From NCBI GenBank assembly GCA_036399775.1, contig DASWMJ010000096.1, positions 69,665 through 133,664 on the forward strand: DNA of 64,000 bases, given 5' to 3'. Numbering within the stretch: the first letter of the stretch is position 1; the number at the start of each line of letters is the position of its first letter. Origin of the DNA: Chloroflexia bacterium. Lineage in GTDB: Bacteria > Chloroflexota > Chloroflexia > QHBQ01 > JADMIH01. Positions 55,654 through 63,348 of the stretch are shown piece after piece. A program made the translations under genes and the position numbers. Below the pieces are notes generated by a model. That model ran no database searches, was not told the DNA's origin, and saw nothing but the letters and a program-made list of their open reading frames with translations.

Positions 55654-55766
55654 GAAACTTGACGCAGAGGCGGCATAAGTGCGAAACTCTACAACGCATT
55701 CAGCAAACAGGAAACCCTTAGCGTCCATTGGCTCGGTCACAATTTGAACACGAGAGGAGGAGTAAT

Positions 55767-57287
55767 ATGCCAGAGTTCGCTTGTATTAACTACGACCTGG
55801 TAGGAATTTATCGTACCCCTGAACGTGAGGGGTATGCTGGAACGCTTGCCTGGGGAGATACGGTCGAGGTACTGGAAAAAACGAATACATACTTGAAGGT
55901 ACCATACTATTTGCGCAACAAGGATGGGAGCCTGCAATCTGAGCCTTCTCCCTGCTACATTATCCCCAGGAAGGTTACGCCTGATGAAATCATCGTTGCT
56001 CCCGAAGAGAATAAGGTCTTGCGTATGGACTTCGTTGATGTGCAACAGGGTGATGGCTCCATCGTCCAGACCCCAAAAGGGAAGACGATAATCATCGACG
56101 GGGGGATGGGCAACCTCTTCGCACGTTATCTTGCCGCCAGATACCGGGGTAGCTCCAAAGACAATCCCCAGCAGTTCGACTGCATCGTTGTGACGCACGG
56201 GGACGCGGATCACTTCGCCGGCCTCACAGCCATCCATGCAACGGAGAAGAATGACTCAAAGAGTAAGCGCCTATTCATGTATCCGAGACGTGTTTATCAC
56301 AATGGCCTTGTCAAGCGCCCTGGCAAAATGAACGGGCAGGACCTTACTCCCAAAGAGATGTTTGGGGCCACCGTACCCATAGGCAATCGAACCATCATCA
56401 CCGATCTAGTGGACGATCTCACGCAGACGCCGGATACGGTGATGAACGAGCCATTTCGCGCCTGGAAAAAGGCGCTCTCCAGTTACCGGCAACGCTATGA
56501 AGGTCCGTTCGGACCTATGGATATTCGGAGGCTGGCCTACGGAGACGATGATGCCTTCAGCTTCCTCTCAGATGAGGGGATAAAGGTGGAGGTCCTTGGC
56601 CCTATACCTTATGAGAAAGATGGCATATATGGGTTACCTTTTTTGGGTGCGCCCTCGCGAAACCCACGCCTCGAAGATGAGTCTTTGGACCTATCGGACG
56701 AAGTCTTCAAGGGTACGGACGATTCGCATACTATCAACGGCCACTCGGTGCTCCTGAGGCTGACGTACGGAAACGTAAGATTACTGTACACGGGTGACAT
56801 GAACAACCAGAGCGAAAGGACCCTGGTCAGGCAGCATAAAGAGAAGCTCAGCGCAGAAGTTATGAAAGTGCCTCACCACGGTTCGCATGATTTCTCTGCT
56901 GCTTTTCTCAGGGCGGTTTCACCGCTGGTATCCGTGGTCTCTTCGGGTGACGAGAATGAAAGAGTCGAATATATACACCCTCGGGCCAATCTGATGGGAG
57001 CGCTTGGTCGATACTCAAGGGTCTCCGAACCGCTGGTGTTCGTAACAGAACTGGTCGCCTTCTTCAAGTATGAGGGCTATGCAAGACCCGTATCCGACGC
57101 TGATGCACAGGAGCGAGGTAGCTTTATTGCATTCAGCAGGTCGGCTTGGGGGATCGTTCGCGTACGGACTGACGGACATCGTCTCTTTGTTTACACGGAC
57201 AGCGGTAAGCGAGGGCAGTTTGAAACCTATGCCTACACAATAGAGGATGGAGCAGTACCCCAGGCGACCAAGGTGCGAGCAACGTGA
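55767..57287 (+). CDS. ComEC-type MBL-fold metallo-hydrolase with an N-terminal SH3-like domain
   Basis: GAGAGGAGGAG RBS. Motifs VVTHGDADHFAGL (HxHxDH) and LxLTYGNVRLLYTGD...KVPHHGSHD, typical of the ComEC/Rec2 beta-lactamase-like nuclease domain. N-terminal approximately 70 aa (CINYDLVGIYRTPEREGYAGTLAWGDTVEVLEKTNTYLKV) resemble bacterial SH3. GC about 50% versus 62% flanking. Confidence 0.7.
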   Translation: MPEFACINYDLVGIYRTPEREGYAGTLAWGDTVEVLEKTNTYLKVPYYLRNKDGSLQSEPSPCYIIPRKVTPDEIIVAPEENKVLRMDFVDVQQGDGSIVQTPKGKTIIIDGGMGNLFARYLAARYRGSSKDNPQQFDCIVVTHGDADHFAGLTAIHATEKNDSKSKRLFMYPRRVYHNGLVKRPGKMNGQDLTPKEMFGATVPIGNRTIITDLVDDLTQTPDTVMNEPFRAWKKALSSYRQRYEGPFGPMDIRRLAYGDDDAFSFLSDEGIKVEVLGPIPYEKDGIYGLPFLGAPSRNPRLEDESLDLSDEVFKGTDDSHTINGHSVLLRLTYGNVRLLYTGDMNNQSERTLVRQHKEKLSAEVMKVPHHGSHDFSAAFLRAVSPLVSVVSSGDENERVEYIHPRANLMGALGRYSRVSEPLVFVTELVAFFKYEGYARPVSDADAQERGSFIAFSRSAWGIVRVRTDGHRLFVYTDSGKRGQFETYAYTIEDGAVPQATKVRAT

Positions 57288-57311
57288 GTTACGGAGCGTA
57301 AGGTGGACACT

Positions 57312-58634
57312 ATGCAACCACAAGCAACGCTAGTGGTCAAGGTCAGGATGTACCGTCAGGGGTTCGGAGACTGCTTCTTGCTCTCATTCCTGAGGGGCGG
57401 CCAAACCTTCAATATGCTCATCGACTGCGGAGTGCTCGAGAATACCGAGAAAAAGGCGGCTATAATGCGGTTGGTAGCCCAAGACATCAAGGTGGTAACT
57501 GCCAATCGTATCGACCTCCTTGTAGCTACGCATCGGCACTGGGACCACGTGTCGGGGTTTCTTCAAGCGCGAAGGGTGTTCGGGAGTATGGAAGTGGGGC
57601 GAATATGGATGCCCTGGACGGAAAATCCGATCGATCAGCAAGCCGCCAGGATGTGGAAACGTAGTCGTGCTAACCTACTGCTAACGCGGAAGTTGATTAC
57701 CAAGAGCGAATCGAAAGAAGCGCAGGTGCCTTCAGTTCATCAGGGTGGGAAGACGGAGAAAATGGAGGACCTACGTGCTGGGATTGACTCTATCCTAAGC
57801 TTCTCCATGGACACTCATCCTGATGCAGGATCTACGCGCGAGGTGGTTCGCAACGACCCGAGGCAAGCACTAGCCTATGTTTCGACGCTCGGGCAAGCGC
57901 CTTTGTGGTATCTTGAGCCAGACGTATCCACAGAGGCTGCGCCGCTCACCCTTCCGGGCCTGGAGGGTGTTCGCATCTACGTGCTTGGACCCCCGAGAGA
58001 TATGATGCTGCTTAGCCACGACTATCCGAACCAGTGGGACGCGGAAGATACTATCTATGGCCTCTCCGATCTAATGAAGGACAGTGAGGATAATAAGCTC
58101 AGACGGGCGTTCAGGCGTGCTCTGTCGCTCGACTCGGTTGTGAACAACACCAGCCTGGCTTTGGCGATTGAGTTAACTGAAAGTGGCAAGGTGCTGCTCT
58201 TCCCAGCGGACGCTCAGATAGGCAATTGGGAGTCCTGGAGCAACCTATCGTGGAGGGTGCGAGCCGCAGATGGCTCTTCATGGGTGGTGCGCATCGAGGA
58301 TCTATTGAGTCGTACTGTGCTCTATAAAGTAAGTCATCATGGTAGTCACAATGGGACGTTGCGCCGACGCGGGCTAGAGCTGATGAACCACACGGATCTG
58401 GTCGCTATGGTCCCTGTAGACTTGGAGACCGCCGCTGAGCGGCTTTGGTGGCGAATACCCGAGGCTCAGCTGATGAATAGTCTGAAAGTACATACACGGG
58501 GGCGTGTTATCCGATCCGACACAGGGTTGCCTGACCGAGATGACCTCAAGAGGCTGTCATCGCAAGAAACAGCAGCATTTATAGCTGCGACTCGACAGCA
58601 AGATATGTGGGTCGAACTTACAATACATGAATAG
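57312..58634 (+). CDS. ComEC-type MBL-fold metallo-hydrolase, second paralogous copy
   Basis: AAGGTGGA RBS. VATHRHWDHVSG (HxHxDH), LALAIELTESGKVLLFPADA and KVSHHGSHNG motifs. Same architecture as the upstream gene but diverged, 441 aa. Confidence 0.7.
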   Translation: MQPQATLVVKVRMYRQGFGDCFLLSFLRGGQTFNMLIDCGVLENTEKKAAIMRLVAQDIKVVTANRIDLLVATHRHWDHVSGFLQARRVFGSMEVGRIWMPWTENPIDQQAARMWKRSRANLLLTRKLITKSESKEAQVPSVHQGGKTEKMEDLRAGIDSILSFSMDTHPDAGSTREVVRNDPRQALAYVSTLGQAPLWYLEPDVSTEAAPLTLPGLEGVRIYVLGPPRDMMLLSHDYPNQWDAEDTIYGLSDLMKDSEDNKLRRAFRRALSLDSVVNNTSLALAIELTESGKVLLFPADAQIGNWESWSNLSWRVRAADGSSWVVRIEDLLSRTVLYKVSHHGSHNGTLRRRGLELMNHTDLVAMVPVDLETAAERLWWRIPEAQLMNSLKVHTRGRVIRSDTGLPDRDDLKRLSSQETAAFIAATRQQDMWVELTIHE

Positions 58635-58699: not shown

Positions 58700-58982
58700 A
58701 TTGAATAGCGGCGACGAGCCGCATGCCCGCGTCGAAGTGGAATAGTAGCTACATCAAGGATTTGCAGCGAATCGGGAGATGGTGCAAGCCCGGTAGACCT
58801 GGCGTAGCGAACCGGCCATGGAGCGGTCCGCCGAAGAAAGCCCAACGGCGAGCAAGTAGGATGGAGTGGTTGGTCACCACGCACAAAATAACCACGAGCG
58901 GTCACAGGCCAAAAATGTGACAATTAGGGTGGTACCGCGGGAGCCATGCTCTCGTCCCTTGCTTTGGGACGGGAGTTTTTTG
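58700..58982 (+). promoter_or_regulatory. T-box riboswitch leader RNA (tRNA-sensing transcription attenuator)
   Basis: Canonical T-box sequence AATTAGGGTGGTACCGCG at 58923-58940. It is immediately followed by an intrinsic terminator (stem CTCTCGTCCC / GGGACGGGAG, 58949-58975, then TTTTTTG), and the T-box 3' half can alternatively pair with the terminator 5' arm to form an antiterminator. Leader of about 283 nt between promoter and ATG 59015. Possible specifier GAA-GAA-A or AAG/AAA near 58833-58839. Confidence 0.75.
58949..58982 (+). terminator. intrinsic terminator of the T-box leader
   Basis: 10-bp stem (one G-U) CTCTCGTCCC / GGGACGGGAG with a 7-nt loop and a TTTTTTG tract. Confidence 0.7.
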
Positions 58983-59014
58983 TTGCCCGGAATCGGCGGG
59001 AGGAGGATCGGGTC

Positions 59015-60088
59015 ATGCAAGTAACGCTGGGCAAGATAGCCTCGGTGACGGCGCGGGTGAGACTGCCCCACCAGGTGGAGATAGGCGATTACGTCTGCGC
59101 AGAGCGCGGCGCGGTGATAGTGGTCGAAGCTCTTGAAGAGAAGTCGGTGTACGGAGAGCTTGAGCTGCTCGGCGGCAGGATGGCTCGCATCATCAAGGGC
59201 GACGTGATGGCGGGCGTGCTGGGCGAGCGCCAGGCCCTCAAAGGTTTCGTGGGCCACATCCCTGAGCGCATAGAGCCGGGTGACACTCTCCACGTCCTGA
59301 ATATGGGTGGGGTCATAGGGCTGTGTAGCTCCGCCAACACCGATTTCGGCCAGGCGTTGCGGGTGCGCGTGCTCGGTTCGGCCATAGTTGACGGCGAACC
59401 TGCCAGCATCGCCCGCGACGCGCTCCCCTGGCGCAACTCCCTCCACAGGAGCGCGCCTATCATCCTCGTCTCCGGCACCTGCATGAACGCGGGCAAGACT
59501 ACAGCGGCGTGCGAGAGCCTACGCGTGCTGTCGAGCAGGGGGTACCGGATCGCAGCCGCCAAGCTCGCGGGCGTTGCCACTCAGCGCGACCTGCTGAATA
59601 TGCAAGATCACGGCGCGATAGCGGCGCTCTCATTCAGCGACGCGGGCCTCCCCTCCACCACCGGCACCGATAGCTGCTTGGTGCCCGCCGCCAAAGGCGT
59701 GCTGGCTGCCCTCAACGCCTCCCAGCCTGACGCCATAATCGTGGAGTTCGGCGACGGTATCATGGGGCACTACGGCGTGGATATACTCCTGCGGGACGCC
59801 GAATTGATGGGCCACGTGCGAGCGCACATCCTCTGCGCCAACGACCTTGTCGCCGCGTGGGGCGGACTGCGCTACCTCGAAGGGATGGGCGTGCGTGTAG
59901 ACTGCATATCAGGCCCGGCCACCGACAACACGGCGGGCGTAGATTACATCAACAAGCATTTCAGCATGCAAGCCGCCAACGGTCGCACGCAACCCACTCT
60001 CCTGGCCGACATGGTGGAAGCCCTGGCCTTCCCAGGCAACTCCCATTCGATGTCTGGCAGAATGATAGAAGATAGGGACGTGGCGTAA
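59015..60088 (+). CDS. P-loop protein, DUF1611-like (possible DgcN-type N-acetyltransferase), first gene of the T-box operon
   Basis: GGGAGGAGG RBS and ATG 59015. The upstream ATG of the ORF track lies inside the terminator hairpin. P-loop-like VSGTCMNAGKTT. Stop overlaps the argC start (ATGA). Family assignment from recall only. Confidence 0.45.
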   Translation: MQVTLGKIASVTARVRLPHQVEIGDYVCAERGAVIVVEALEEKSVYGELELLGGRMARIIKGDVMAGVLGERQALKGFVGHIPERIEPGDTLHVLNMGGVIGLCSSANTDFGQALRVRVLGSAIVDGEPASIARDALPWRNSLHRSAPIILVSGTCMNAGKTTAACESLRVLSSRGYRIAAAKLAGVATQRDLLNMQDHGAIAALSFSDAGLPSTTGTDSCLVPAAKGVLAALNASQPDAIIVEFGDGIMGHYGVDILLRDAELMGHVRAHILCANDLVAAWGGLRYLEGMGVRVDCISGPATDNTAGVDYINKHFSMQAANGRTQPTLLADMVEALAFPGNSHSMSGRMIEDRDVA

Positions 60089-61179
60089 TGGCTATACGGC
60101 AATTCTCCATGTCGCGGCCCGCGCGGGTAGCGGTGGTGGGCGCATCGGGGTATATCGGCGGGGAGGCGTTGCGCCTGCTGCTGGGGCACCCGTGCGTAGA
60201 AGTGGCAGCGGTAACGTCGCAGTCACATGCAGGCAAGCTCGTTGCCGAGGTACACCCACACCTGGCCCATACCACGGAACTCAACTTCGTCGGCGACCTG
60301 CCCCCGGAGGCTGCGAGCGAGTATGACGCAATCTTCCTGGCGCTGCCGCACGGCGCTGCCATGTCCCGCGTGCCGCAGATGCTGGCTCATATGGGAGAGG
60401 GCGGTCCGAGAGGCGACGGCCCGCTCATATTGGACTTGAGCGGCGACTTTCGCATTAAGGAGGAGGCGCAGTTCCAGAGATACTACGGGCTGCAACACAC
60501 GGCCTCCGAGTGGGCCGGGCGTGCGGCTTATGGCTTGACCGAATGGAACCGCGAAGCCATAAGGGAGGCGCGATTGGTGGCGTGCCCTGGCTGCTTCCCG
60601 ACCGGCTCGCTGCTGGCCCTTACGCCGCTCGCTCGCGCCGGACTGCTGACCGGGAACGTAGTGATCGACTCCAAGACAGGCTCGTCGGGTTCCGGCAAAG
60701 AGCCGGGCGAGGGCACCCATCACCCCACGCGGGCGAACGACTTCCGCGCTTATGGCCTGCTCAAGCACCGCCACTTGCCGGAAATCGTCCAGGAACTCGC
60801 TAAGTGGCATCTCCAGGACAGCGCAAGCCTTCGCGTGGTCTTCACGCCCCATTCCGCCCCGATGGTGAGGGGCATATTCACTACGGCCTACGTCTTCCCT
60901 TCGCGCCCGGTCAGCAAGGAGGAGCTACGCGATATATACGAGCAGGCTTACCAGGGCGAGTATTTCGTGCGGTTGGTGGAGTCGCCCCGCGTAGGCGTGG
61001 TAGCCCACTCCAACTTCTGCGACATAGCCGCCGTGACCGATGGCGAGGGCGCTATCATAGTAACCAGCGCCATAGACAATCTCGTAAAAGGCGGCGCGGG
61101 CCAGGGCGTGCAAAACCTCAACGTAGCATTCGACTGGCCCGAAAATCTCGGCCTAACCTTCCCAGGCACGATGCCATAA
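60088..61179 (+). CDS. argC: N-acetyl-gamma-glutamyl-phosphate reductase (ArgC/LysY type)
   Basis: VVGASGYIGGEALRLL NAD motif and catalytic-Cys region LVACPGCFPTG, 363 aa. Confidence 0.85.
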   Translation: MAIRQFSMSRPARVAVVGASGYIGGEALRLLLGHPCVEVAAVTSQSHAGKLVAEVHPHLAHTTELNFVGDLPPEAASEYDAIFLALPHGAAMSRVPQMLAHMGEGGPRGDGPLILDLSGDFRIKEEAQFQRYYGLQHTASEWAGRAAYGLTEWNREAIREARLVACPGCFPTGSLLALTPLARAGLLTGNVVIDSKTGSSGSGKEPGEGTHHPTRANDFRAYGLLKHRHLPEIVQELAKWHLQDSASLRVVFTPHSAPMVRGIFTTAYVFPSRPVSKEELRDIYEQAYQGEYFVRLVESPRVGVVAHSNFCDIAAVTDGEGAIIVTSAIDNLVKGGAGQGVQNLNVAFDWPENLGLTFPGTMP

Positions 61180-61267: not shown

Positions 61268-62464
61268 ATGGTTGCAACGATAGATACCGCCACCGGCAGG
61301 CAGGCTGTGATTGACGAAGAAAACAGGGCGCAACTGGGCACATATGCCAAGCTGCCTATAGTGGCGGTGCGGGGTAGCGGCATCATGCTGTACGACGCAT
61401 CGGGCCAGGCATACTACGACTTTTACTGCGGGCACGCCGTAACGCTCCTGGGGCATTGCCACCCCAGGGTCGTGCAGGCGATAAAGGAGCAGGCCGAGCG
61501 CCTCATTTTCTACTCGAACATCGTTTACAACGACGTGCGGGCGCAGTACGCCGCCGCGCTGGTGGGGGTTGCGCCGAGGGGTTACGGGCAGGTCTTTTTC
61601 TGCAATTCGGGGGCCGAGGCCAACGAGACCGCGCTCAAGCTGGCGCGCAAATATACCGGAAGGCCGACCATGCTGGCGATGGACGGCAGCTTTCACGGGC
61701 GGACGATGGGCGCGCTCGCCATGACCAGCAACCCGAAGTATAGGCAGGGCTTCGAGCCGCTACTTCCGGGCGTTGAGTTCGTACCGTTCGGCGACCTGGC
61801 TGCCACACAGGCCAGATTGGAGAAAGGCGACATCGCCGCCATCATAATTGAGCCTATACAGAGCATCGCGGGCGTGCGAATGGAGGGGGCTGAATACTAC
61901 AGGGCGTTGCGAGAGCTTTGCGATAGGCATGGCTCGCTGCTCATCTTTGACGAGATACAGACAGGACTTGGCCGCACGGGCAAGCTGTGGGCAGGCGAAC
62001 ACTGGGATGTCGTGCCCGATATTATCACGCTGGCTAAGGGCATAGCGAGCGGCGTGCCGATGGGGGCTACGCTTATCTCCACGCACATCGCTGAGACGGT
62101 TCATCTTGATGAGCACGGCTCGACCTTCGGAGGCTCGCCTATCGCCTGCGCCGCCGCCTCTGCTACGTTGGGCGCTATCCTCGAAGATAACATGGTGGAG
62201 CACGCCGGGGCTATGGGTAGGCTAATGGTAGAGAAACTGGGCGGGTTGCCCCACATCCAGGAGATACGGGGGATGGGCCTCTTGCTAGGCTTATGCCTCG
62301 ACGTGCCCGCGAAGGACGTGCAGTACGCCGCGCTCGAACGCGGCGTCATCCTCGGCACTTCGGGCGATCCGAACGTATTGCGTATCATGCCTCCGATGGT
62401 GGTCACGCCGGAGGATGTGGAGCACCTGGCATCGGTGTTGCGAGACGTGCTGCAAGGTATTTAG
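61268..62464 (+). CDS. argD: acetylornithine aminotransferase (class III; ArgD/LysJ type)
   Basis: Class III aminotransferase motifs (FCNSGAEANE, IFDEIQTGLGRTG PLP-lysine region), 398 aa. Confidence 0.85.
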   Translation: MVATIDTATGRQAVIDEENRAQLGTYAKLPIVAVRGSGIMLYDASGQAYYDFYCGHAVTLLGHCHPRVVQAIKEQAERLIFYSNIVYNDVRAQYAAALVGVAPRGYGQVFFCNSGAEANETALKLARKYTGRPTMLAMDGSFHGRTMGALAMTSNPKYRQGFEPLLPGVEFVPFGDLAATQARLEKGDIAAIIIEPIQSIAGVRMEGAEYYRALRELCDRHGSLLIFDEIQTGLGRTGKLWAGEHWDVVPDIITLAKGIASGVPMGATLISTHIAETVHLDEHGSTFGGSPIACAAASATLGAILEDNMVEHAGAMGRLMVEKLGGLPHIQEIRGMGLLLGLCLDVPAKDVQYAALERGVILGTSGDPNVLRIMPPMVVTPEDVEHLASVLRDVLQGI

Positions 62465-62472
62465 TGGCGTCC

Positions 62473-63348
62473 ATGATGGATGAGACAGGCGCAGATTCAT
62501 ACTTAGGGCAGCACAAAGGCAAGCGTTTCGTCGTCAAACTGGGTGGCGAAGTGATGCTGAACGCCGCCGGACTGCGCGCGCTTTCAGCCGACATAGCTAC
62601 CCTAGCGCGATCCGGCGTGGGGGTGGTCATCGTGCATGGCGGCGGCCCGCAAGCCGACGCGCTAGCCGCTAAGCTGGGGCACCGGGTACGCAAGGTAGCA
62701 GGTCGCCGCGTGACCGACGACGATGCCCTGGAAGTAGCGAAGATGGTGTACGGCGGCAGTATCAACCTGGAATTGCTGGCCGCGTTGAGGGCCGCAGGCG
62801 CGCAGGGGGTGGGCCTTTCAGGGGTCGACGCGACGCTGATAACGGCCACGCGCCGCATGCCTGTCGTGGTACGCGACCAGCATACCGGCACAGATGAGAT
62901 GGTGGACTTCGGGCACGTAGGGGATATTGCCGCCGTAGACGTTTCGCTGGTGGACTTGCTACTGGGAGCGGGCTACGTGCCGGTGGTAGCTTCGCTGGCT
63001 GCCGACGATGAGGGCAACCTGTACAACGTCAACGCGGATACGGTCGCGCAGGCGCTTGCCGTCGCCCTCCATGCGGACAGGCTATACCTGCTGACCAACG
63101 TGCCCGGCATCCTGCTCGACCCAACCGACCCAGGTTCGCTCCTACCCATCTGCACGCGCGAGCAGGCAGAGCGGCTGATTAGGCAGGGAGTGATCTCCGG
63201 TGGGATGCTCCCAAAGGTGCTGAACTGCCTGCAAGCCCTGGCGGATGGCGTGCGGCAGGTCCAGATTCTAGACGGCACCCAGGAGAGGTCGCTGCTGCTT
63301 GAAAGCCTGGCCCCCAATGCTGAGGTGGGAACGCTGCTGGTCGAATAA
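62473..63348 (+). CDS. argB: acetylglutamate kinase (ArgB/LysZ type)
   Basis: VVKLGGEVM nucleotide-binding start and amino-acid kinase fold. Start set at ATG 62473 just after the argD stop; the longer track ORF overlaps argD. Confidence 0.85.
   Translation: MMDETGADSYLGQHKGKRFVVKLGGEVMLNAAGLRALSADIATLARSGVGVVIVHGGGPQADALAAKLGHRVRKVAGRRVTDDDALEVAKMVYGGSINLELLAALRAAGAQGVGLSGVDATLITATRRMPVVVRDQHTGTDEMVDFGHVGDIAAVDVSLVDLLLGAGYVPVVASLAADDEGNLYNVNADTVAQALAVALHADRLYLLTNVPGILLDPTDPGSLLPICTREQAERLIRQGVISGGMLPKVLNCLQALADGVRQVQILDGTQERSLLLESLAPNAEVGTLLVE

What the first reader, a model, noticed from the sequence alone, without database searches (positions are those of the whole stretch)
59015..60088. 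P-loop DUF1611-like protein occupying the argJ/argA slot of the operon
The operon reads X-argC-argD-argB with 4-bp ATGA coupling between X and argC. It lacks an ornithine acetyltransferase or N-acetylglutamate synthase gene. X has a GTxxxxGKTT-type P-loop (VSGTCMNAGKTT) and a size and architecture reminiscent of DUF1611, the family of DgcN D-glutamate N-acetyltransferase. A DUF1611 enzyme acetylating L-glutamate or a LysW-type carrier would be a non-orthologous first step of arginine/lysine synthesis.
Basis: inference. Interest (0 to 1): 0.55.

Follow-up and report, generated by a model that had tools for sequence, protein, structure and literature searches.

The report
Likely missing first arginine-pathway enzyme
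An unnamed two-domain P-loop protein heads the ornithine operon of an uncultured Chloroflexia bacterium that has none of the usual starter enzymes. It is most likely the enzyme that N-acylates glutamate to start arginine (and here also proline) synthesis, a role a recent preprint already predicts for what looks like the same family but nobody has tested.

Summary
The gene is real: 59015-60088, 357 aa, good RBS, P-loop VSGTCMNAGKTT. It is the first gene of X-argC-argD-argB, behind a T-box leader. One detail is wrong: the X/argC junction is TAATG (1-nt overlap), not ATGA.

X belongs to no Pfam or NCBIfam family. DUF1611_C scores 16 bits against a cut-off of 25. Its C-terminal domain folds like DUF1611/DgcN and dethiobiotin synthetase (Z 15-17). 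Its all-beta N-terminal domain matches no solved structure (best Z 3.3).

ArgJ, ArgA and LysW were not found in the genome. ArgJ was found in 0 of 41 relatives but in 307 of 401 Chloroflexota. In 79 of 80 loci from about ten phyla the homolog lies next to arginine genes, most often in the order argG-X-argC-argD-argF'-argB, with a further gene before argH (an M20 deacylase in the two loci checked). Only the first step then lacks a gene.

The GapMind 2026 preprint already predicts this role for what appears to be the same family, and this scan has met it many times. It is therefore a new member of a predicted, untested kind.

Local twists:
- The operon is split and X is duplicated (X-argCDB and argG-X'-argF'-argH).
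- The first operon sits behind a proline-reading T-box, and proBAC was not found.
- ArgF' carries Gln at the acetyl/succinyl selector position, so the acyl group is open.

The parts
58723..58985 (+). T-box leader (58723-58962) with its terminator hairpin and U-run. The specifier loop reads GAA-CCG-G, that is a proline codon, and the T-box bulge is UGGU.
   Evidence: RF00230 scores 91.7 bits, E 1e-20. It is conserved before X in 12 relatives. The reading frame is fixed by three things: the Rfam alignment, the invariant purine after the codon, and the Arg CGC reading that the same frame gives on the argG operons. The genome has a tRNA-Pro(CGG) with discriminator A.
59015..60088 (+). Gene X, 357 aa: candidate non-GNAT N-acyl-L-glutamate synthase and first gene of the operon.
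   Evidence: ORF and RBS. More than 2600 homologs, none with a name or a Pfam family. AF2 model pLDDT 95.6. Single copy in this assembly.
59015..59434 (+). N-terminal all-beta domain of X (about residues 1-140). Conserved polar residues are S10, E50, R55, D63 and R72.
   Evidence: The domain modelled alone gives pLDDT 91.9. Foldseek against the PDB finds nothing at E <= 0.5. VIA-align over 48,161 chains gives a best Z of 3.3.
59435..60034 (+). C-terminal SIMIBI-type P-loop domain of X (about residues 141-340). Its motifs are G154-T-x4-G160-K161-T162, K183, D192, D209, D239, and E244 within VEFGDG.
   Evidence: VIA-align wide: DUF1611 2g0t_B Z 17.2, 2obn_A 16.5, BioD 1a82_A 15.8, DgcN 7xrj_A 15.6. 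Foldseek: BioD 1dae at E 2e-6. Invariant residues.
59468..59503 (+). P-loop motif VSGTCMNAGKTT (residues 152-163).
   Evidence: Translation. G160 and K161 are invariant and T162 is kept in at least 90% of 52 homologs.
60088..61179 (+). [quoted passage not shown] Its ATG shares one base with the TAA stop of X. An alternative start lies at 60109.
   Evidence: TIGR01850 379.7 bits against a cut-off of 233.6. Junction sequence.
61268..62464 (+). argD, N-acylornithine aminotransferase.
   Evidence: TIGR00707 414.2 bits against a cut-off of 410; PF00202 373 bits.
62473..63348 (+). argB, N-acylglutamate kinase. The likely start is the ATG at 62473, 9 nt after the argD stop. The longer ORF from 62293 overlaps argD.
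   Evidence: TIGR00761 226 bits against a cut-off of 151. Sequence. Relatives align only from about residue 71 of the long ORF.

Best explanation
X most likely catalyses the first step of ornithine synthesis. It puts an acyl protecting group on the alpha-amino group of L-glutamate, in place of ArgA/ArgJ, using a two-domain protein with no GNAT fold.

Inferred mechanism, by analogy with the structurally nearest characterised enzyme (the DUF1611 protein DgcN, a D-glutamate N-acetyltransferase): the P-loop domain holds the nucleotide part of an acyl-CoA, and the conserved Arg, Glu and Ser residues of the novel beta domain hold glutamate. ArgB, ArgC and ArgD then make N-acyl-ornithine.

In this bacterial order the product feeds two routes:
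- Arginine, through an N-acylornithine transcarbamylase ArgF', ArgG and ArgH. These are encoded with a second X copy in a separate operon seen in relatives.
- Proline, through an ornithine cyclodeaminase homolog, since proB, proA and proC were not found. This explains why the X-argCDB operon sits behind a tRNA-Pro-sensing T-box.

Shown here: gene, fold, synteny, absence of alternatives, regulation.
Inferred: the reaction, the acyl donor (acyl-CoA favoured over ATP plus free acid, roughly 2:1), and the acyl group. The acyl group is probably succinyl in most phyla and is unresolved here, because ArgF' has Gln at the selector position.
For: 1. Synteny. X-argC-argD-argB is conserved in 7 relatives. 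79 of 80 homolog loci from about 10 phyla lie next to arg genes, most often in the order argG-X-argC-argD-argF'-argB, then one further gene, then argH. In the two loci checked (L102, L131) that further gene is an M20 deacylase, and L131 also has ArgR upstream of argG. Every step but the first then has a gene.
2. Absence of alternatives. ArgJ, ArgA and LysW were not found in this 94%-complete genome. ArgJ was found in 0 of 41 relatives, 1 of 50 X-bearing genomes of other phyla and 307 of 401 Chloroflexota, including every sampled genome of sister families f2, f3 and f5.
3. Co-occurrence among 41 relatives. All 25 genomes with X have argC. The only argC-positive, X-negative genomes are a fragmented MAG and G171. 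G171 has a LysW-LysX-LysK-LysY-LysZ-LysJ cluster instead.
4. Second copy. The paralog X' sits in argG-X'-argF'-argH(-carA) behind an Arg (CGC) T-box.
5. Fold. DUF1611 and the DgcN acetyltransferase 7xrj are among the top structural matches.
6. Independent prediction. GapMind 2026 Appendix 2 makes the same prediction for a protein of the same description.
7. Proline link. proA was found in 0 of 41 relatives; proB and proC were not found here; an OCD homolog is present. The T-box specifier is CCG/CCC in 11 of 13 leaders.
Against: - No biochemical or genetic test exists for any member of the family.
- A Chloroflexota family of another class (f28) has a 40%-identical homolog in X-argF'-carA... and also has ArgJ. 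X is therefore not always a replacement. Those genomes carry two argC copies.
- X keeps every motif of an ATP-using BioD-type enzyme, including a Lys after strand 2 (K183) that true DUF1611 proteins lack. The DgcN analogy for the acyl donor may therefore be wrong.
- Sequence-level homology to DUF1611 is not significant.
- In this order no deacylase gene lies in either arg operon, so that step is also unassigned. X could in principle serve it.
- The second operon (argG, argF', argH, carA) is missing from this assembly.
- I could not align X directly with the preprint's protein.
Confidence: 0.62

Rival explanations
1. Same pathway step, different chemistry. X would be an ATP-dependent amide ligase of the dethiobiotin-synthetase/CobQ type. 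It would phosphorylate a free carboxylic acid (succinate, acetate or another) and join it to the amino group of glutamate, without any acyl-CoA. The acid released at the later deacylation step would be re-used.
For: - Foldseek's best PDB matches are dethiobiotin synthetases (1dae at E 2e-6). By VIA-align, BioD (Z 15.8) lies within about 1.5 Z units of DUF1611.
- The profile search of PDB sequences finds FtsY and BioD but no DUF1611 entry.
- X has the full set GTxxxxGKT, K183, acidic residues and hhhE-x-GDG. From memory, K183 lies 22 residues after the P-loop Lys, the same spacing as K15/K37 of E. coli BioD.
- True DUF1611 proteins have no Lys there.
Against: - The two best structural matches are DUF1611 proteins, and a member of that fold class (DgcN) is deposited as an N-acetyltransferase.
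- P-loops of this class can also bind CoA nucleotides.
- No ligand modelling or assay was done.
Confidence: 0.2
2. X removes or recycles the acyl group. It would be an N-acyl-citrulline/ornithine deacylase, or an ArgJ-like transacylase that passes the acyl group back to glutamate. This would cover the unassigned deacylation step in this order.
For: - X' sits beside ArgF', whose product needs deacylation, in argG-X'-argF'-argH. In f28 the order is X-argF'-carA....
- No M20 gene lies in either Chloroflexia operon.
- f28 genomes have ArgJ as well as X.
- The preprint notes that Steroidobacter also lacks ArgE.
Against: - In the two other-phylum operons examined, an M20 deacylase gene lies in the same operon as X. 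A gene-sized gap between argB and argH recurs in the other full operons. Deacylation is then covered and only the first step lacks a gene.
- M20 homologs exist elsewhere in this genome and its relatives.
- A P-loop fold has no precedent as an amidohydrolase.
- X is anti-correlated with ArgJ in 49 of 50 and in 41 of 41 genomes. That pattern fits either role, but a pure transacylase would still need a priming synthase.
Confidence: 0.1
3. X is not a pathway enzyme. It would be an accessory NTPase, for example a metallochaperone, an assembly factor or a regulator of the arginine enzymes, as HypB, UreG and MinD-type proteins are for their partners.
For: The fold class (SIMIBI) holds many such proteins. 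HypB, ApbC, Cfd1 and MinD score Z 12-15.
Against: - The first step would then have no gene in more than 100 genomes.
- The P-loop is of the GTxxxxGKT enzyme subtype (BioD, CobQ, DUF1611), not the G3E or deviant Walker A subtype.
- The extra conserved beta domain with invariant Arg and Glu looks like a substrate-binding domain.
Confidence: 0.06
4. X is a LysX-like ligase that ties glutamate to a carrier protein rather than to a small acyl group.
For: It would be an ATP-type fold at the first-step position. The sister family f4 uses LysW/LysX.
Against: - No LysW was found in the genome.
- No small conserved ORF lies in the operons.
- argB and argC score as ArgB and ArgC rather than LysZ and LysY.
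- The partner ArgF' belongs to the family that acts on small N-acyl-ornithines.
Confidence: 0.02

Closest known systems
[quoted passage not shown]
   Same: - A hypothetical protein almost always found inside arginine operons with argB, argC, argD, argF', argG, argH and sometimes argE and argR.
- Carrier genomes lack ArgA.
- Remote Foldseek/structural similarity to DgcN 7XRJ.
All of these are true of X and its homologs.
   Different: - I could not obtain that sequence, so identity of the two families is inferred from matching descriptions, not from an alignment.
- The operon here is split and X is duplicated.
- Regulation is by T-boxes (Pro and Arg), not ArgR.
- ArgF' has Gln at the selector position. 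The preprint saw this in only 2 of 70 cases, so 'succinyl' may not apply here.
- The role is a prediction and has not been tested.
DgcN / DUF1611 (PF07755 + PF17396; PDB 7XRJ, 2G0T, 2OBN), D-glutamate N-acetyltransferase
   Same: - About 340-360 aa in two domains.
- The C-terminal P-loop domain superposes at Z 15.6-17.2, rmsd 2.7-2.9 A over about 180 residues.
- Both have a GxxxxGK(T) loop and a hhhE-G-x-G strand.
- The proposed substrate is also glutamate.
   Different: - Below the Pfam cut-off; hhalign probability 4%.
- The N-terminal domain is all-beta with no solved match, and gives no PF17396 (DUF1611_N) hit.
- X has an invariant Lys after strand 2 that DUF1611 lacks.
- The substrate would be L-Glu, not D-Glu, and the context is biosynthetic, not catabolic.
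Dethiobiotin synthetase BioD (and CobQ/CobB, CTP synthase N-domain)
   Same: Best Foldseek matches, with Z about 15.8. X shares the GTxxxxGKT P-loop, the second Lys and the E-G-x-G strand.
   Different: - Only sub-threshold sequence scores (CbiA 17.9 bits, cobQ 17.9 bits).
- BioD has no N-terminal beta domain.
- BioD closes a ureido ring and is unrelated to arginine synthesis.
ArgA / ArgJ (classical N-acetylglutamate synthase and ornithine acetyltransferase)
   Same: The proposed reaction (N-acylation of L-glutamate) and the operon position.
   Different: No GNAT, amino-acid-kinase or DmpA/OAT fold. None of these were detected in the genome.
Proline-specific T-boxes of Bacillus subtilis proBA and proI
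   Same: A tRNA-Pro-sensing T-box switches on the route that supplies proline.
   Different: Here the controlled genes are arginine-type genes (X-argCDB), because proline appears to be made from ornithine.

Membership tests
GapMind-predicted alternative N-acyl(succinyl)-glutamate synthase family (ACG33_RS14135-like) | Gene embedded in arginine biosynthesis operons | tested here: met
   The window holds X-argC-argD-argB. 79 of 80 homolog loci lie next to arg genes.
GapMind-predicted alternative N-acyl(succinyl)-glutamate synthase family (ACG33_RS14135-like) | Carrier genomes lack ArgA (and ArgJ) | tested here: met
   ArgJ and ArgA were not found in G000. ArgJ was found in 0 of 41 relatives and in 1 of 50 other carriers. 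The exception is family f28, which has both.
GapMind-predicted alternative N-acyl(succinyl)-glutamate synthase family (ACG33_RS14135-like) | Remote structural similarity to DgcN (PDB 7XRJ) | tested here: met
   7xrj_A scores Z 15.6, rmsd 2.9 A, 181 residues aligned.
GapMind-predicted alternative N-acyl(succinyl)-glutamate synthase family (ACG33_RS14135-like) | Partner ArgF' with a small residue (A/P/S/V) at the position of Xanthomonas AOTC Glu92, implying succinyl intermediates | tested here: not met
   All 7 Chloroflexia ArgF' sequences have Gln. Other phyla have A 27, T 4, V 4, S 3 and P 2, with Gln in 4 more. ArgF' itself is not in this assembly.
GapMind-predicted alternative N-acyl(succinyl)-glutamate synthase family (ACG33_RS14135-like) | Significant sequence similarity to ACG33_RS14135 / A0A127FCT3 itself | not testable with these tools
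   The sequence could not be reached.
DUF1611 (Pfam PF07755 C-domain + PF17396 N-domain) | PF07755 score at or above the gathering cut-off | tested here: not met
   16.2 bits against 25, over the P-loop only. Only 11 of 52 homologs give even weak hits. hhalign against 15 true members gives probability 4%.
DUF1611 (Pfam PF07755 C-domain + PF17396 N-domain) | DUF1611_N (PF17396) N-terminal domain | tested here: not met
   No hit. The N-domain model is all-beta, with a best PDB Z of 3.3.
DUF1611 (Pfam PF07755 C-domain + PF17396 N-domain) | Fold of the P-loop domain | tested here: met
   2g0t_B Z 17.2 and 2obn_A Z 16.5 are the top two of 48,161 chains.
Dethiobiotin synthetase / CobQ-type ATP-dependent amidoligases | Family HMM over threshold (CbiA PF01656, AAA_26 PF13500, TIGR00313) | tested here: not met
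   CbiA 17.9 bits against 25.4; cobQ 17.9 bits against 309.9.
Dethiobiotin synthetase / CobQ-type ATP-dependent amidoligases | GTxxxxGKT loop, Lys after strand 2, acidic E-G-x-G strand | tested here: met
   G154-T162, K183 and E244-G246-D247-G248 are invariant or nearly so. The equivalence to BioD residues rests on memory.
ArgA/ArgJ | GNAT/AAK or ArgJ (PF01960) domain | tested here: not met
   No such domain in X.
LysW/LysX carrier system | LysW carrier protein and ATP-grasp LysX in the genome | tested here: not met
   PF21344 gave no match in G000, while the control found it in 5 named genomes. The sister genome G171 does have the system.

The most novel reading that the evidence does not exclude
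X is not a CoA-dependent transferase. It is a BioD-like, ATP-driven amide synthetase with a previously unseen substrate-binding beta domain. In this Chloroflexia lineage it installs a protecting group that is neither acetyl nor succinyl, flagged by the invariant Gln at the ArgF' selector position. One duplicated enzyme would then gate a shared ornithine trunk for both proline and arginine, under separate tRNA-Pro and tRNA-Arg riboswitches.
Probability: 0.12. Interest if true: 0.8.

Novelty: new member of a known kind. Interest (0 to 1): 0.45.

Why it matters
The first enzyme of arginine synthesis is missing from the annotation of many bacterial lineages, which makes them look like auxotrophs in metabolic models. 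If X is that enzyme, N-acylglutamate synthesis has arisen on a P-loop fold unrelated to GNAT or ArgJ. The gap would then close in Chloroflexia, Planctomycetota, Acidobacteriota, Gemmatimonadota, Elusimicrobiota, Myxococcota and others.

This locus adds three testable points:
- Which acyl group the Gln-type ArgF' lineages use.
- Whether the chemistry needs ATP or an acyl-CoA.
- A case where an 'arginine' operon is wired to proline starvation, because proline is made from ornithine.

The family-level idea is already in a preprint and has been met repeatedly in this scan, so the novelty here is incremental.

Tried and rejected
Neighbourhoods were read from the genome search, the fetch from genomes and the search for related loci instead.
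It worked with the 5-sequence A4.
- I could not fetch the Steroidobacter protein. It was not among the best 80 loci. A homolog search with a Pseudomonadota member returned no Steroidobacter-named hit.
- The DgcN paper (Yu et al. 2023) is not in the library. DgcN's activity is taken from the PDB title and from the preprint's citation.
- Rfam at gathering threshold missed the T-box. It scores 91.7 against 93 and was found at the E-value threshold.
- Rejected T-box reading frames: CGG (Arg) and GGC (Gly). They are followed by a pyrimidine, and on the argG operons they would read Ala or an inconsistent mix.
- No T-box was found near the OCD homolog.
- N-domain: Foldseek and VIA-align gave only noise-level matches to LexA/signal-peptidase-like and Tudor/SH3-like barrels, Z no higher than 3.3.
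- I first read the f28 homologs as lying outside arg context. This was corrected: they sit in X-argF'-carA....
- Complex prediction, sequencing-run tools and phage/plasmid searches were not used, as they have no bearing on the question.
Full report
**Observation**

The ORF at 59015-60088 (+) encodes 357 aa and starts at an ATG 8-12 nt behind GGGAGGAGGA. The P-loop VSGTCMNAGKTT is residues 152-163. Three genes follow: argC (TIGR01850, 380 bits), argD (TIGR00707, 414 bits) and argB (TIGR00761, 226 bits; likely start 62473).

The X/argC junction is TAATG, a one-base overlap, not ATGA.

Directly upstream lies a T-box leader (58723-58962, RF00230, 91.7 bits, E 1e-20) with its terminator. The longer frame from 58946 would run through that terminator and is not the gene.

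**What X is as a protein**

- No Pfam or NCBIfam model reaches threshold. CbiA scores 17.9 bits, DUF1611_C 16.2 and cobQ 17.9, all over the P-loop only.
- The family is large. 1366 clusters at 50% identity match at E <= 1e-3 and 137 at E <= 1e-30. Members are about 350 aa and unnamed.
- Across 52 divergent members only weak P-loop families appear.
- G160, K161, K183 and E244 are invariant. S10, E50, R72, T162, D192, D209, D239 and D277 are kept in at least 90%.
- AlphaFold gives a confident two-domain model (pLDDT 95.6).
- C-terminal domain: a full-library structural comparison puts two DUF1611 structures first (2g0t_B Z 17.2, 2obn_A Z 16.5). Dethiobiotin synthetase follows (Z 15.8), then the DgcN acetyltransferase 7xrj (Z 15.6), then other SIMIBI NTPases. 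Foldseek alone favours dethiobiotin synthetase.
- N-terminal domain (about 140 residues): all-beta. Modelled alone (pLDDT 91.9) it has no meaningful match. Foldseek finds nothing at E <= 0.5 and the best Z is 3.3.
- A profile comparison with 15 true DUF1611 proteins from the same phylum gives 4% probability.
- DUF1611 proteins lack the Lys after strand 2 that is invariant in X.

X is therefore a structural cousin of DUF1611_C and BioD with a different N-terminal domain. It is not a DUF1611 member.

**Genomic evidence for the role**

The window's genome (94% complete, 100 contigs) shows no ArgJ, no ArgA beyond ArgB itself and a generic GNAT, and no LysW. The named control genomes gave the expected hits.

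ArgJ distribution:

| Sample | Genomes with ArgJ |
|---|---|
| Relatives of the same order and class | 0 of 41 |
| Chloroflexota sample | 307 of 401 |
| Sister families f2, f3, f5 | 25/25, 7/7, 5/5 |
| X-bearing genomes of other phyla | 1 of 50 |

- X (64-80% identical) is present in 25 of the 41 relatives, and every one of those also has argC.
- The argC-positive, X-negative genomes are one fragmented MAG and G171. G171 carries a LysW-LysX-LysK-LysX-LysY-LysZ-LysJ cluster instead.
- A scan of species-representative genomes found 587 loci. Of the best 80, from Chloroflexia, Planctomycetota, Acidobacteriota, Gemmatimonadota, Elusimicrobiota, Sumerlaeota, Myxococcota, Pseudomonadota, Bdellovibrionota and Wallbacteria, 79 have arg genes beside X.
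- The commonest order is argG-X-argC-argD-argF'-argB, then one further gene, then argH. In the two loci checked (L102, L131) that further gene is an M20 deacylase, and L131 also has an ArgR gene upstream of argG. Every step except glutamate N-acylation then has a gene. This is the main argument that X is that step rather than the deacylase.

**Prior art**

Earlier notes of this scan pointed me to GapMind 2026 (bioRxiv 10.1101/2024.10.14.618325). [quoted passage not shown] The preprint describes this protein as follows:
- It is a hypothetical protein almost always found in arginine operons.
- It is never found together with ArgA homologs.
- It is remotely similar to DgcN 7XRJ.

The preprint's case for succinyl is that the neighbouring ArgF' has A, P, S or V at the position of Xanthomonas AOTC Glu92. 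The description fits X point for point. However, I could not obtain that sequence, so identity of the two families is inferred. The prediction is untested. This scan has reported the same family in at least a dozen other windows.

**What is particular to this lineage**

1. *Split operon and a second X copy.* Relatives carry a second copy, X' (about 72% identical), in argG-X'-argF'-argH(-carA-carB). In a quick ML tree, X and X' of this order form one clade. Copies from the same genome are sisters (SH-aLRT 99 for two pairs). This points to recent duplication or gene conversion, and to the same function. This assembly lacks the second operon altogether: no argG, argH, argF' or carA by tblastn. 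It is probably unassembled.

2. *Regulation.*
   - The leader before X reads CCG in the specifier position in this window and 7 other leaders, CCC in 3, and CGC in 2. One of the CGC leaders is the second of a tandem pair whose first reads CCG.
   - The leaders before argG-X' read CGC, which is Arg.
   - The frame is fixed by the Rfam alignment, by the invariant purine after the codon, and by the sensible Arg reading on the argG operon.
   - The genome has tRNA-Pro(CGG) with discriminator A, matching the UGGU bulge. tRNA-Arg(GCG) has discriminator G, matching UGGC in two of the Arg leaders.

3. *Why proline.* proA is over cut-off in 0 of 41 relatives. proB and proC were not found in this genome. 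An ornithine-cyclodeaminase-family gene is present in 27 of 41 relatives, including this genome at C89:189699-190583. Ornithine is therefore the likely proline precursor, and X-argCDB is also a proline operon.

4. *ArgF' selector residue.* ArgF' of this order belongs to the N-acetylornithine carbamoyltransferase family (NF003384, 396-424 bits). It has Gln at the selector position in all 7 Chloroflexia sequences. Other phyla have A, V, S, P or T in 40 sequences and Gln in 4, and none has Glu. The acyl group here is therefore open.

5. *A counter-example.* Family f28, of another Chloroflexota class, has a 40%-identical homolog in X-argF'(Ile)-carA-... and also has ArgJ and two argC copies. X is thus tied more tightly to ArgF' than to the absence of ArgJ.

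**Mechanism**

Two chemistries fit the evidence.
- *Acyl-CoA-dependent transfer.* This is the reaction of the DUF1611 enzyme DgcN, the nearest characterised fold relative.
- *ATP-dependent ligation of a free acid.* This is BioD/CobQ-type chemistry. X keeps every motif it needs, including the second Lys that DUF1611 lacks.

I favour the first at about 2:1. This rests on the structural ranking and on the precedent of an enzyme that acts on glutamate.

A deacylase or transacylase role remains possible for this order, where no deacylase gene is linked. It is disfavoured by the M20 gene inside the operons checked in other phyla. M20 homologs exist elsewhere in this genome (C49:755-1375) and in relatives.

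**Verdict**

It is unproven for acetyl and is not new.
- I class X as a new member of a predicted, untested kind, with lineage-specific features worth a bench test.

**Unpublished genomes**

The tallies for relatives include G416, G421, G422 and G432. The phylum tallies include G038, G145, G173, G227, G272 and G344. Their loci were left out of the T-box alignment, the synteny tables and the tree.

Noticed in passing
window 58723-58985: The T-box leader before an arginine-type operon has a proline specifier (CCG), not an arginine one. I confirmed it and extended it to 12 relatives (CCG, CCC or CGC).
   Followed up: yes
L039:2637-3316 (G434:C52, upstream of X): Two T-box leaders in tandem precede X-argCDB. 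The first reads CCG (Pro) and the second CGC (Arg). Read-through would need both tRNAs to be uncharged, which is an odd logic for a shared trunk pathway.
   Followed up: partly
G000 whole genome; OCD homolog at C89:189699-190583: proB, proA and proC were not found, while an ornithine-cyclodeaminase/mu-crystallin gene is present. proA was not found in any of 41 relatives. Proline is probably made from ornithine in this order.
   Followed up: partly
G000 whole genome: argG, argH, argF' and carA were not found by tblastn with 70%-type orthologs, although relatives have them in one operon with X'. This is most likely an assembly gap in the MAG, and it would also hide a second X copy.
   Followed up: partly
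L045:7900-8997, L050, L055, L097, L100, L047, L051: All Chloroflexia ArgF' proteins carry Gln at the position of Xanthomonas AOTC Glu92, the acetyl/succinyl selector. Four ArgF' sequences from Pseudomonadota, Myxococcota and Planctomycetota MAGs do too.
   Followed up: partly
L018, L019, L020 (family f28 of another Chloroflexota class): An X homolog (about 40% identical) lies in X-argF'(Ile92)-carA-carB/argH-argG in genomes that also have ArgJ and two argC copies. These genomes may run two parallel acyl routes.
   Followed up: partly
L073:7664-14407 (G171, sister family f4): A complete LysW-type cluster (lysW, two LysX-like ATP-grasp genes, lysK, lysY/argC, a methyltransferase, lysZ, lysJ) in a genome with neither X nor ArgJ.
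   Followed up: partly
window 55728-58634: Two adjacent metallo-beta-lactamase-fold genes (519 and 443 aa) lie in a stretch of lower G+C (0.53-0.55 against 0.60-0.64 around it), just upstream of the T-box.
   Followed up: no
L045:2090-2192: A SAM riboswitch (RF00162, 80.7 bits) lies a few kb from the argG-X'-argF'-argH operon of G412.
   Followed up: no
L118, L130, L164, L165: Record titles name Klebsiella pneumoniae, Enterobacteriaceae or a Woesearchaeota archaeon for MAG contigs carrying this bacterial arg operon. In the tree their X genes sit among sequences from environmental Pseudomonadota and Myxococcota MAGs, or alone on a long branch. Mislabelled or mis-binned records are likely.
   Followed up: no
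L021-L025 (G255, G289, G305, G224): A more distant branch of the family (about 31-34% identical to X) showed no arginine genes in tblastn of the flanking 6-10 kb. Its function may differ.
   Followed up: no
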